NCBI RefSeq assembly: GCF_004010195.1
Contig: NC_057719.1
Coordinates: 19,663,562-19,707,944 of the forward strand
Source: Chiloscyllium plagiosum
Lineage: Eukaryota
DNA: 44,383 bases
Direction of reading: 5' to 3'
Shown: positions 22,201-25,200 of the stretch, one piece after another
Numbering within the stretch: the stretch's first letter is position 1
Layout: the number at the start of each line of letters is the position of its first letter
The notes under the pieces: generated by a model
Told to the model about the DNA's origin: nothing
Databases searched by the model: none
What the model saw: only the letters and a program-made list of their open reading frames with translations
Made by a program: the position numbers and the translations under genes

Positions 22201-25200
22201 TCCCTTTCGCTCAAATCCTCCTGTAATGTTAAAGATTAAATGGGAATATCTCTGGGGGTTGTCTTCAGTGTCAAGTGACTGTGGGGGAGTAGCCATAGTG
22301 TCTGTAGGCATGGCCAACTGATCTCATATAGAGGATGAGTTTTCTTTGTTTAGGGCCTCATTTTGACTCAACTTCGCATGCCTATGAGGAGGGTCAAAAG
22401 GGGGTCACCTAGCTTGTACAAGCTTTAATAAACTTTAACAGTTTGCAGAAGTGTATGTCATTTGCATCTTGTGTGCGAAACTTTGGGAAAAGAACCTAAC
22501 ACTCCAACCCTGGCAACATCCTTGTAAATCTTTTCTTAATCATTTCAAGCTTCACAACATCCTTCAGATAGAAAAGAAACCAGAATTGCACCCAATATTC
22601 CAAAAGTGGCCTAACCAATGTCCTGTACAGCTGCAACATGACCTCCCAGCTCCTATACTTAATCCTCTGACCAATAAAGGAAAGCACAGCAAATGCCTTC
22701 ATTAGCCTATCTACCTGTAATTCTACTTTCAAGAAATTATGCATCCATCTGCCACTCCTCTGCCCGCTGTACTAACCTTGATCAAGTTTGTAAATTTGAA
22801 CCAGTTTCTTGCAGGAAATATAGAACTGTTTATTTGGATTACAGAAGTATATTACAATAGGAAATACTTAAAATCTTGGAGATCTTCTGTATTTTAAAAA
22901 AACTTGCACCATTATCATTCAATTAGGCATCACACCATTAACTGTGTTATTAAACATCTTCAGACTTCCACCCTATCACACTCTTACTCCTTCACAATGC
23001 TCCATTATCCATTTGTTTTAAATATTTCAAACTTTCTGCAGTCATAATGAAAAGTCAGTGATCTAAAATATTCTCTTCATACGTACATACAAAATTCATG
23101 TAGAGTATCCAGAGTCCATTTGATTGCTTACCATAACTTGCCACGAGCTTGTAATGAGTTAATGCAGATTCACAGCTCTGGGGGACTCCAATGCCAGCCC
23201 AGTATCTATAACCCTGATGGAATAAAAAAGATGCACTACTGAAAAAATACTGATTCTGTCCATTTATTAAATGCGATCAGTTACAAAATTTATTGCTGTC
23301 TGAAAGGTCTATGGAAATTCATATCCCGCTGCCCAATTCATAAAATAAAATGTAAAAACTGAAGAGATTATGCCACTGACCCTTTTAATACTTGCTAAAT
23401 TTTATTTTTATTCCACTGTTGTCTGGTAAATCAAAAGCATAGTGCACTGTGAAGCTTTAATGTGCTTTATTTACATACAAACCTTCATATTAACATAAGC
23501 AGGAGTGGACTAACCAGGCCCCGAGCCTGCTTCACCTTTCACGATAACCATAGTTAACCTCAAATGCAAATCCACATTCCCACCTACCCCTGATGACCTT
23601 TCACCCCCCTGCCTGATAAGAGTCTACCTACATCTGCCAGAAATATATTTCAAGGGCTCTGCTCCTTCAGAAAGTGTTCCAAAGACTATGACCCTGAAAA
23701 TAAATGTTCTCTCATCTGTTTTAAATGGAACGCACCTAGTTCTACATGAACTAGGAAACAGAACCATCGAGCTGTACAGCATGGAAACAATCTAAAATGT
23801 AAAAGTTTTTCGTTCTTTACTCTGGGTGAGACGATGACTGTTCATTCCTACTGACATCTAAGTCAGATGGTAGGTATGGTGTGACAGAGTCACAGAGCTA
23901 TACAGCACGGAAACAAATCCTTCAGTCCTAAAGTCCACGTAAACCAGATATCCTAAATTAATCTAGTCCCACTTGCCAGAATTTGGCTCATTTCTCTCTA
24001 AATCCTTCCTATTCATAGACACATCCAGATGCTTTTTAAATGTTGTAATTGTACCAGCCTCCACCACTTCCTCTGGCAGCTCATTCCATTCATGCACCTC
24101 CTTCTACGTGAAAAAGTTGCCCCTTAGGTCCCTTTTAAAATTTTCCCCCTCTGACCTTAAACCTATGCCCTCTAGTTTTGGACTCTCACGCCCAAGGAAA
24201 TGCCTGGTCTATATTCACTCTATCCATACCCCTCACGATTTTATAAACTTCTTTAAGGACATCCCTTAGCCTCAGACACACCATGGAAAATAGCCCCAGC
24301 CTATTCAGCTATTTTCCATAGCACAAATCCCACCAACCCCGGCAATTTCCTCGTAAATCTTTTCTGAACCCTTTCAACTGTCACAACATTCTTCTAATAG
24401 TCATGATTCGGAGATGCCGGTGCTGGACTGGGGTGTACAAAGTTAAAAATCACAACACCAGGTTATAGTCCAACAGGTTTAATTGGAAGCACACTAGCTT
24501 TCGGAGCGACGCTCCTTCAACAGGAGGGCATAGGTTTAAGGTCAGAGGGGGAAAATTTTAAAAGGGACCTAAGGGGCAACGTTTTCACGCAGAAGGAGGT
24601 GCATGAATGGAATGAGCTGCCAGAGGAAGTGGTGGAGGCTGGTACAATCACGTGAAGGAGCGTCACTCCGAAAGCTAGTGTGCTTCCAATTAAACCTGTT
24701 GGACTATAACCTGGTGTTGTGATTTTTAACCTTCTTCTAATAGGAAGGAGACCAGAATTGCATGCAGCATTCCAAAAGAGGCCAAACCAACGTCCTGTAC
24801 AGCCACATGATCTTCCAACTCCTATACTCAAAGCACTGACGAATGAAGGAAGGCATACCAAACACCTTCTTCACTATCCTACCTACCTGTGACTCTACGT
24901 TCACGGAATTATGGACCTGCACTCCAAAATCTCAGTTCAGCAACACTGCCCAGAACCTTACCAGGAAATGTATAAGTCCTGCCTGATTTGCCTTTCCAAA
25001 ATTCAGCACCTCATTTTTCTAAATTATTCTCCAACTGCCACTTCTCAGCCCATTGACCCATCAGATCAAGATCCCGTTGTACTGAGGGTAACCTTCTTTC
25101 CATAGCTATCCTGTCAAGACCCCTCAGGATCTTACTCTGCCTATTTTGTAACCAGTTACTTACCAAAATCATGTGTGCCAACAAATTTCCTCCAAGTGCT

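What the first reader, a model, noticed from the sequence alone, without database searches (positions are those of the whole stretch)
24048..24743. Fold-back element whose loop is a 125-bp inverted copy of neighbouring host DNA
Seen: element 24401-24731 has a 12-bp TSD and 78-bp inverted arms (77/78 complementary). Its spacer 24524-24648 is the reverse complement of 24048-24172 (123/125 identical), a segment ending ~230 bp upstream of the insertion site. The spacer shares variants (cattcatgcacctcc, aaaattttccccctctgacc) that the related CR1 copy at ~21960-22070 lacks. Both arms stop at the same base inside the hammerhead core (TGAAGGAG, missing CTGA). Inference: during integration the RT or a repair polymerase switched from the element onto local DNA or nascent RNA and then back onto the new cDNA, a local templated capture. 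In the pre-mRNA this makes two competing long duplexes (78 bp and 125 bp) in intron 8.
Basis: partly seen in the sequence, partly recalled or inferred. Interest (0 to 1): 0.7.

Follow-up and report, generated by a model that had tools for sequence, protein, structure and literature searches.

The report
Neighbouring DNA trapped in Penelope fold-back
A small dead Penelope-type jumping-gene insertion in a SEL1L intron carries, exactly where its two mirror-image halves meet, a backwards copy of 125 bases from just beside the landing site; this is most likely a DNA-repair scar of a known kind, and it suggests that the two halves were joined at the target.

Summary
The structure is in the sequence: a 331-bp insert (24401-24731) with a perfect 12-bp target duplication, arms 77/78 complementary, and a spacer matching the reverse complement of 24048-24172 at 123/125. 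The insert has the published Penelope-like (PLE) layout: inverted terminal repeats, a minimal hammerhead, a 38-nt tail on one side. It lies inside an old CR1-like copy in a 1,950-nt intron of a minus-strand SEL1L gene.

One first-reader claim fails. The arms do not stop inside the hammerhead core: family contigs show the left arm runs to 24524 and the right starts at 24644, leaving 1-nt and 5-nt microhomologies with the donor.

Best reading (0.60): both target ends primed reverse transcription, and one cDNA end copied 125 nt of local DNA before the ends were joined. Rivals: later repair at the hairpin tip (0.17), pre-mRNA template (0.12), a distant CR1 copy (0.07), artefact (0.04). A second exact local inverted copy with no PLE (39406-39601) shows this is not PLE-specific. 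No genome-wide search, junction-spanning read or empty site was obtained. L1 and PLE precedents exist. A new variant of a known kind.

The parts
23214..25163 (-). Host intron (1,950 nt) of a SEL1L-like gene, between the exons encoding [12 protein letters not shown]... (25164-25223) and [10 protein letters not shown]... (23136-23213)
   Evidence: tblastn with SEL1L-like proteins; GT/AG borders; Sel1 and FN2 Pfam hits on the minus strand; best PDB hit for another exon is Protein sel-1 homolog 1
23886..25070 (-).
   Evidence: 74-77% to the copy at 21795-22741 and 58-63% to others; its part from 24984 on is also held by organism B (records 8 and 14)
24048..24172 (+). Donor segment, ending 228 nt before the insert
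   Evidence: 123 of 125 to the reverse complement of the spacer
24389..24400 (+). Left copy of the 12-bp target-site duplication
   Evidence: 12 of 12 identical to 24732-24743; related CR1 copies run through this site uninterrupted (D2/D3)
24401..24438 (-). One-sided 38-nt PLE 'tail' (38-41 nt, depending on how two junction bases are assigned)
   Evidence: Present on the left arm only here and in the copies at 10546 and 43233; matches the 30-40-bp tail in PMC8557442
24439..24524 (-). Left arm: PLE terminal repeat, sense on the minus (pre-mRNA) strand; minimal hammerhead with core CUGUUGA (one change) and the 5' strand of stem I replaced by spacer
   Evidence: family contigs align to 24524 and then continue with PLE sequence (tables 7 and 8)
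24524..24648 (+). Captured spacer: inverted copy of 24048-24172; 1-nt microhomology at 24524, 5-nt microhomology (ACAAT) at 24644-24648
   Evidence: for identity; loose ends for the PLE sequence on either side; 1 of 6 fold-back centres tested has a local match (score 111 vs 11 or less)
24644..24731 (+). Right arm: PLE terminal repeat without tail, sense on the plus strand; hammerhead core broken (CTGA replaced by G at 24652)
24648..24660 (+). Junction 13-mer that matches the donor's minus strand (24099-24112) in 13 of 14 columns: a possible second small templated patch, unresolved
   Evidence: Score 11, reached by 0 of 2000 shuffles; only 8 against the spacer (122 of 2000); unlesioned cores score 7; noticed post hoc
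24732..24743 (+). Right copy of the 12-bp target-site duplication

Best explanation
A one-step integration scar. (1) PLE endonuclease made a staggered cut with 12-nt 3' overhangs in the CR1 copy (inferred from the duplication). (2) Both 3' ends primed reverse transcription of PLE terminal-repeat RNA, the top strand at the tail start and the bottom strand at the tail-less start, and both cDNAs stopped just 5' of the hammerhead (the layout is shown; twin priming is inferred). (3) The two cDNA ends have the same sequence, so they cannot anneal and must be end-joined. (4) Before joining, one end was extended 125 nt on local chromosomal DNA. The simplest path is that the top-strand end folded back on its own resected strand at 24172 (1-nt microhomology), copied to 24048, then annealed to the other cDNA through ACAAT. 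The mirror path, the bottom-strand end priming on the donor through the 5-nt match, gives the same product. (5) Fill-in, ligation and about 1-2% later divergence followed. The enzyme (Pol theta, Pol delta or the PLE RT on DNA) is unknown. The product is probably inert: both hammerheads are broken, and the intron gains an alternative 83-pair or 124-pair RNA helix away from the splice sites.
For: Layout, duplication and identities. Donor 98.4% vs 56-84% for the 5 other window copies; 20 columns shared against the nearest. By eye, in the 30 nt where one search gives a family consensus, donor and spacer share 3 letters (24090, 24093, 24099) against both that consensus and the 21950 copy. The spacer sits at the arm junction with 1-nt and 5-nt microhomology. 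Other family copies join their arms directly at varied positions (5 such joints among 15 shown of 650; 2 of 2 other window copies), so the junction is rebuilt each time. A PLE protein cuts and extends both strands and has two RT starts separated by the tail (PMC11167929). Inverted templated insertions fit hairpin-primed synthesis, with shorter microhomology in the first round (PMC7165422). An inverted duplication ligated to the RT end is described for L1 (PMC11702581 Fig. S9C legend). A second inverted local copy with the same short/long microhomology pattern has its donor on the other side; one DNA-templated geometry explains both, whereas an RNA template needs a different geometry for each.
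Against: No genome-wide search was possible, and no listed contig bridges a junction. At both mismatches the spacer has the 21950 copy's letter, as a different source copy could; at 24115 the broad family consensus sides with the donor instead. Pol theta first-round tracts are rarely over 10 bp and yeast fold-back inversions are mostly 5-34 bp, so 125 nt at 228 nt distance is long for those routes. Arm divergence (1 of 78 plus two core changes) and spacer divergence (2 of 125) are too small to show that the two events were simultaneous. The CTGA-to-G change is not explained.
Confidence: 0.6

Rival explanations
1. Two steps: the PLE first inserted as a near-perfect palindrome; the hairpin tip later broke, and host repair patched it with an inverted copy of nearby DNA.
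For: Both arms reach nearly to the family's usual 5' limit, so a direct join would have given a long palindrome, a fragile structure (own knowledge). Local inverted copying happens here without any PLE (39406-39601, 196 of 196). Divergences cannot order the events.
Against: Needs a second break that removed only a few bases of the arms. The 5 other fold-backs tested in the window have no local patch. One event is simpler than two.
Confidence: 0.17
2. RNA template: the RT on the bottom strand jumped from PLE RNA onto nascent SEL1L pre-mRNA at the 5-nt match and copied 125 nt before end joining.
For: The geometry allows it: SEL1L is on the minus strand, and the longer microhomology is at the end where such a jump would start. 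RT template switches between RNAs are described for L1 (PMC11702581).
Against: No RNA end or splice site marks either donor boundary (834 nt from the 3' splice site). In the second event (39406-39601) an RNA template would have to prime with no microhomology. Neither mismatch is A-to-G on the RNA strand.
Confidence: 0.12
3. The spacer came from the RNA or cDNA of another CR1 copy of a near-identical subfamily; the local match is kinship, not templating.
For: The spacer carries the 21950 copy's letter at both mismatches. CR1-like sequence is very abundant (depth above 10^5 over the donor in all 4 runs, against about 2-26 in unique flanks). The spacer is CR1 sense, so a CR1 RNA fits the bottom-strand geometry.
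Against: Other window copies match at 56-84%. The 5 listed family pieces over 24111-24178 and 24558-24620 carry 3-4 differences in about 62 nt (a cut list). The host copy is shared with organism B, so it is not recent. A random template would rarely match the copy next door at 98%.
Confidence: 0.07
4. Assembly or library chimera that folded neighbouring sequence into a repeat.
For: The window has an N gap (7161-7548) and a 99% tandem duplication beside it. Inverted PLE structures trouble short-read assemblies (PMC8557442). No listed contig spans a junction.
Against: The spacer differs from the donor at 2 sites, with letters found in a related copy; a chimera should copy the donor exactly unless alleles differ. 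The duplication is perfect and both junctions have microhomology to the family sequence. Flanks match organism A contigs with 0-2 differences.
Confidence: 0.04

Closest known systems
Complex insertions of endonuclease-bearing Penelope-like elements: inverted pLTR, one-sided tail, TSD (Arkhipova et al. 2013, PMC3846280, passages; Craig et al. 2021, PMC8557442, passages; Frangieh et al. 2024, PMC11167929, parts 1-2 of 4)
   Same: Head-to-head terminal repeats, 38-nt tail at one end, short TSD (8-10 bp in the rotifer cases, 12 here), hammerhead in the repeat, AT-rich target.
   Different: No ORF; both arms are short stumps; the arm junction holds host DNA from the landing site instead of an overlap or palindrome.
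Host DNA captured by Penelope repeats in Adineta vaga (PMC3846280, passages)
   Same: Unrelated host sequence between pLTRs and inside a TSD.
   Different: In the passages seen, the captures are long spacers or genes moved to new sites, with no local donor named. Here the donor is 228 nt away, inverted, and sits at the inverted junction.
L1 insertions with locally templated or inverted genomic DNA (PMC11702581, main-text passages and Fig. S9/S10 legends); twin priming (PMC2912911 and PMC12016303, passages)
   Same: Staggered 3' overhangs giving a 12-18-bp TSD, both ends extended by RT, end joining with microhomology, occasional inverted duplication of flanking DNA ligated to the RT end (3 with inversions and 3 with nearby templated DNA in that study).
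   Different: Germline, PLE, non-mammalian. The local copy lies between two cDNAs, not at the outer 5' junction. The two arms copy the same RNA stretch, whereas L1 twin-primed halves mostly copy adjacent stretches.
Inverted templated insertions at breaks: Pol theta TINS (PMC7165422, passages) and yeast fold-back inversions (PMC11724301, abstract)
   Same: Reverse-complement copy of flanking DNA, short microhomology at one end and longer at the other, possible extra round of synthesis.
   Different: Tract (125 nt) and distance (228 nt) exceed the typical values reported there (rarely over 10 bp; mostly 5-34 bp).
Minimal hammerheads of metazoan PLEs and non-LTR retrozymes (PMC4209133, parts 1-2 of 4; bioRxiv 10.64898/2026.07.22.740005, part 1 of 5 and passages)
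   Same: Type I minimal motif with an extra base before stem II, G10.1-C11.1 and a palindromic AGCU in place of helix III. Opposite-strand pairs 100-700 bp apart were noted in Schistosoma.
   Different: Both cores are broken here, and the copies are inverted, not tandem, so this is not an active retrozyme by that paper's definition.

Membership tests
Penelope-like element insertion (EN+) | Terminal repeat in inverted arrangement at the 5' end | tested here: met
   Arms 77 of 78 complementary, head to head; same layout at 10546 and 43233
Penelope-like element insertion (EN+) | 30-40-bp tail at one end only | tested here: met
   24401-24438 on the left arm only; homologous tails in both other copies
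Penelope-like element insertion (EN+) | Short target-site duplication | tested here: met
   12 of 12
Penelope-like element insertion (EN+) | Minimal hammerhead motif in the terminal repeat | tested here: met
   Motif read by eye against the features in PMC4209133: intact core in the 10546 copy and in family contigs; 5-bp stem II predicted. Rfam gave no hammerhead hit at E up to 1
Penelope-like element insertion (EN+) | RT plus GIY-YIG ORF in this copy or in a partner with the same repeat; clade assignment | not testable with these tools
   No ORF in the 331-bp insert; no genome held; no PLE domain among 250 window ORFs of 52 aa or more. The clade is not assigned
Active non-LTR retrozyme | At least two tandem units, each with a complete type I hammerhead | tested here: not met
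   Copies are inverted and both cores are altered; definition
Locally templated inverted insertion | Insert is a near-exact reverse complement of DNA close to the break | tested here: met
   123 of 125, 228 nt away
Locally templated inverted insertion | Microhomology at the junctions | tested here: met
   1 nt and 5 nt against the family continuation; the 1-nt match is within chance
Locally templated inverted insertion | The local donor is the best match in the whole genome | tested here: inconclusive
   Best of 6 window copies; no genome; contig table cut to 32 of 253,464 pieces
Locally templated inverted insertion | Empty site in another allele or species | tested here: inconclusive
   Joints near 24375-24393 to 24734-24740 appear in all 4 runs but cannot be told from other CR1 copies
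Pol theta-mediated end joining | Dependence on POLQ; first-round tracts mostly under 10 bp | not testable with these tools
   The enzyme cannot be read from one locus; the 125-nt tract is atypical

The most novel reading that the evidence does not exclude
Local capture at the arm junction is a recurrent by-product of PLE integration in this shark-type genome, because the inverted repeat is built at the target: a dimeric PLE protein primes from both cut ends, and two non-complementary cDNA flaps wait for host end joining, now and then copying nearby DNA. The junctions of the very many copies would then be a natural record that separates twin priming at the target from the self-priming model for inverted pLTRs, and a countable source of local inverted duplications in introns.
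Probability: 0.4. Interest if true: 0.62.

Novelty: new variant of a known kind. Interest (0 to 1): 0.37.

Why it matters
How PLEs make their inverted repeats is stated as open (PMC8557442); self-priming was proposed from palindromic junctions (PMC3846280), and in vitro data show that both strands are cut and extended (PMC11167929). A junction filled with DNA from 228 nt beside the landing site could not have come with the element's own RNA, so, if it was made during integration, the two arms were joined at the target. One locus does not prove that, and it has no evident function. Its value is as a template for a genome-wide count (distance, side, orientation, strand relative to transcription), which would test the mechanism directly. 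Unchecked notes from this scan report four more local cases in the same genome; these are leads, not support.

Tried and rejected
Pattern scans for other family copies: 0 hits in viral contigs and 0 in metagenome contigs. Rfam: 1 weak miRNA-like hit at 5124-5253, no hammerhead. Read laying: 4 of 24 listed runs, all contigs (X2, X8 organism A; X12, X13 organism B). Repeats swamped the tables: 32 of 253,464 pieces, 15 of 650 joints and 24 of 2,273 loose ends were shown. No listed piece bridges a junction, but locus-specific pieces over the donor are missing too, so this says nothing for or against. Empty-site-like joints are rejected as evidence because CR1 paralogues give the same joints. No RNA holder was listed and no RNA run was laid, so expression, editing and splicing are untested. 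'Arms stop inside the core' is rejected. My first idea that CACG at 24649-24652 is pure filler is rejected: CAC is PLE sequence. The second-patch idea is kept only as a hint: it was noticed post hoc and fits the present donor (0 of 2000 shuffles) but not the spacer (122 of 2000). My note that the two mismatches are one per copy is only half supported: the 21950 copy sides with the spacer at both. Ribozyme cleavage of the pre-mRNA is rejected as unlikely: core and stem I are altered, and a single minimal hammerhead showed no cleavage in vitro. Literature: searches listed no paper whose title or abstract start describes local inverted capture at a PLE arm junction; the library lacks most subscription papers. 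PMC12016303 and PMC9977147 (passages) added nothing on local capture. PMC5110952 was seen as a search listing only. Supplements of the bioRxiv retrozyme preprint were not seen and may list this family. Earlier-findings look-ups by sequence and by the first word set returned nothing.

Full report
Observation. The insert spans 24401-24731 and is flanked by an exact 12-bp duplication at 24389-24400 and 24732-24743. Related repeat copies run through this site without interruption. The arms 24442-24519 and 24653-24730 are 77 of 78 complementary. The spacer 24524-24648 equals the reverse complement of 24048-24172 at 123 of 125 positions, with E 6e-57 in the window self-comparison; the next copy, 21958-22080, gives 85.6%. 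The donor ends 228 nt before the insert. None of this is chance.

Setting. Minus-strand frames carry Sel1 and fibronectin type II domains (5 of 250 frames scanned), and one exon's best PDB match is Protein sel-1 homolog 1. tblastn with 9 of 150 retrieved proteins places exons at 25164-25223 and 23136-23213, with a GT...AG intron of 1,950 nt between them. The number 8 agrees with human numbering as I recall it. The insert lies 432 nt from the 5' splice site and the donor 834 nt from the 3' splice site. Target and donor both belong to one old LINE-like copy (23886 to about 25070) that is 74-77% identical to its neighbour at 21795-22741. The copy's part from 24984 on is also in organism B.

What the element is. 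Two more copies of the family lie at 10546-10732 and 43233-43410. All three have an antisense arm with a one-sided tail and a sense arm without it. This is the published PLE layout: inverted 5'-truncated copy, 30-40-bp tail, short duplication (PMC8557442 passages; PMC3846280 passages). The arm carries the minimal hammerhead features described in PMC4209133 (parts 1-2 of 4), read by eye; Rfam does not detect it. No ORF is present and no partner could be sought, so the clade is open. It is not an active retrozyme by the tandem definition in bioRxiv 10.64898/2026.07.22.740005.

Correction of the junctions. Family contigs say otherwise. They align up to 24524 and then continue TGATTGTG... (loose ends in X2, X8, X12), and upstream of 24653 they read ...ACAATCACCTGA (X12, X13; X8 similar). 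So the left arm holds the whole core with one substitution, and shares 1 base with the donor at 24524. The right arm starts at 24644, shares ACAAT with the donor, and has CTGA replaced by G. Both arms thus end within about 11 nt of the point where the family's loose-end consensus breaks up. The changed junction 13-mer matches the donor's minus strand in 13 of 14 columns, a score reached by 0 of 2000 shuffles, while unlesioned cores score at chance (593 and 793 of 2000). Against the spacer's own version it is weak (122 of 2000). I noticed this after the fact and keep it as a hint of a second small patch.

Is the donor local? The spacer matches the 5 other copies aligned from the window at 56-84%. 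Donor and spacer agree against the nearest at 20 columns and a 2-nt gap. In the 30 nt for which one search gives a family consensus, they share 3 letters against both that consensus and the nearest copy (read by eye). Against this: at both mismatches the spacer has the nearest copy's letter, although at 24115 the broad consensus sides with the donor. Two changes in the donor and none in the spacer is not unusual for so few events, but it keeps a distant source alive. The genome-wide test was not possible.

Mechanism. The orientation fits both target ends acting as primers: the top strand continues into antisense PLE from the tail, the bottom strand into antisense PLE from the tail-less point, and 3' overhangs of 12 nt give the duplication. 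A purified PLE protein cuts and extends both strands and starts at two sites separated by the tail (PMC11167929, parts 1-2 of 4). The two cDNA ends have the same sequence, cannot pair, and need end joining. That step looks variable: 5 of the 15 joints shown are direct arm-to-arm joins at different positions, and the two other window copies differ again. Here one end took a 125-nt detour. Fold-back of the top-strand end on its own resected strand, with 1 nt to start and 5 nt to finish, fits hairpin-primed inverted insertions and their shorter first-round microhomology (PMC7165422 passages). The tract is long for that route and for yeast fold-backs (PMC11724301 abstract). The mirror path, the bottom-strand end priming on minus-strand sequence, gives the same product, and its template could be DNA, SEL1L pre-mRNA or a CR1 RNA. 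Shown: layout, identities, junction bases. Inferred: twin priming, timing, template, enzyme.

A control in the same window. 39406-39601 is an exact (196 of 196) inverted copy of 40837-41032, flanked by an 8-bp direct repeat, with 3 nt of microhomology at one end and none at the other, and no PLE. Its donor is on the other side of the break. In both events the longer microhomology is at the end facing away from the donor. One DNA-templated geometry explains both; an RNA template needs a different one for each. It also shows that host repair makes such copies unaided, which supports the two-step rival. This second event was not checked against reads. Of 6 fold-back centres tested in the window, only the present one has a local match.

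RNA level. On the minus strand the minimum-energy fold of 24030-24760 uses 124 donor-spacer pairs and no arm-arm pairs (-386 kcal/mol); with the donor blocked it has 83 arm-arm pairs (-254). The two helices cross, so a nested fold holds only one. The arms are transcribed before the donor, so the arm hairpin should form first (-247 for the prefix). No splice site lies in either helix. The sense hammerhead has lost a core base and its stem I partner, and single minimal hammerheads were inactive in vitro. No RNA data were laid.

Reads. Four contig sets were laid. Flanks match organism A with 0-2 differences, and organism B differs by 8 letters and 3 gaps in 417. No listed piece bridges a junction, but the tables were heavily cut and locus-specific pieces over the donor are missing too. 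The assembly is therefore neither confirmed nor doubted by reads. Internal signs favour a real structure: two mismatches, a perfect duplication and microhomology with the family sequence.

Comparison with what is known. L1 insertions with inverted or templated flanking DNA are described, including an inverted duplication ligated to the RT end (PMC11702581). Host DNA between Penelope repeats inside a duplication is described in a rotifer. My searches listed no paper on local inverted capture at a PLE arm junction, within a library that lacks most subscription journals. Earlier notes of this scan report local captures of 236, 143 and 85 bases and one of a neighbouring PLE copy in the same genome, and a non-local R2 piece at a junction. 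I did not check them. They moved my reading from a one-off to a possibly recurrent outcome, but they are not evidence.

Verdict. Real with high probability, a new variant of a known kind, with no sign of function. Local templating overall about 0.89; during integration on DNA 0.60. Interest 0.37, rising to about 0.6 if a genome-wide count shows that the arm junction is routinely built at the target.

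Noticed in passing
window 39401-39610 and 40837-41032: Exact 196-bp inverted copy of an old LINE-like piece 1.2 kb away, flanked by an 8-bp direct repeat, 3-nt microhomology at one end, no PLE; predicted duplex -376 kcal/mol on the pre-mRNA strand. Not checked against reads.
   Followed up: partly
window 7918-8348: Tandem duplication of about 215 bp, 99% identical (1 substitution, 1 indel), 370 bp from the 388-N gap at 7161-7548; could be a real duplication or two alleles assembled in tandem.
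   Followed up: partly
window 10546-10732 and 43233-43410: Two older copies of the same family with arms joined directly at different points and only decayed target duplications.
   Followed up: partly
window 5114-5302, 10960-11274, 15562-15704: Fold-backs of other repeat sequence that looks PLE-like to me (recall, not classified by a call); none has a local copy in its centre. The Rfam mir-1805 hit at 5124-5253 (E 0.46) is just the hairpin.
   Followed up: partly
window 24520 and 24652: Both hammerhead cores are altered although the rest of the arms differ at only 1 of 78 sites; chance, junction repair or selection cannot be told apart from one copy.
   Followed up: partly
joints table (for example 24519 to 24689 in run X8): Some direct arm-to-arm joints have depth in the hundreds to 1,863, far above single-copy depth, so certain junctions recur or whole fold-backs were amplified.
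   Followed up: no
window 4036-34659, minus strand: SEL1L-like exon chain from the FN2 exon to the transmembrane exon; no exon was found between the FN2 exon and the exon at 27590-27748, where the aligned protein leaves a gap of 35 residues.
   Followed up: partly
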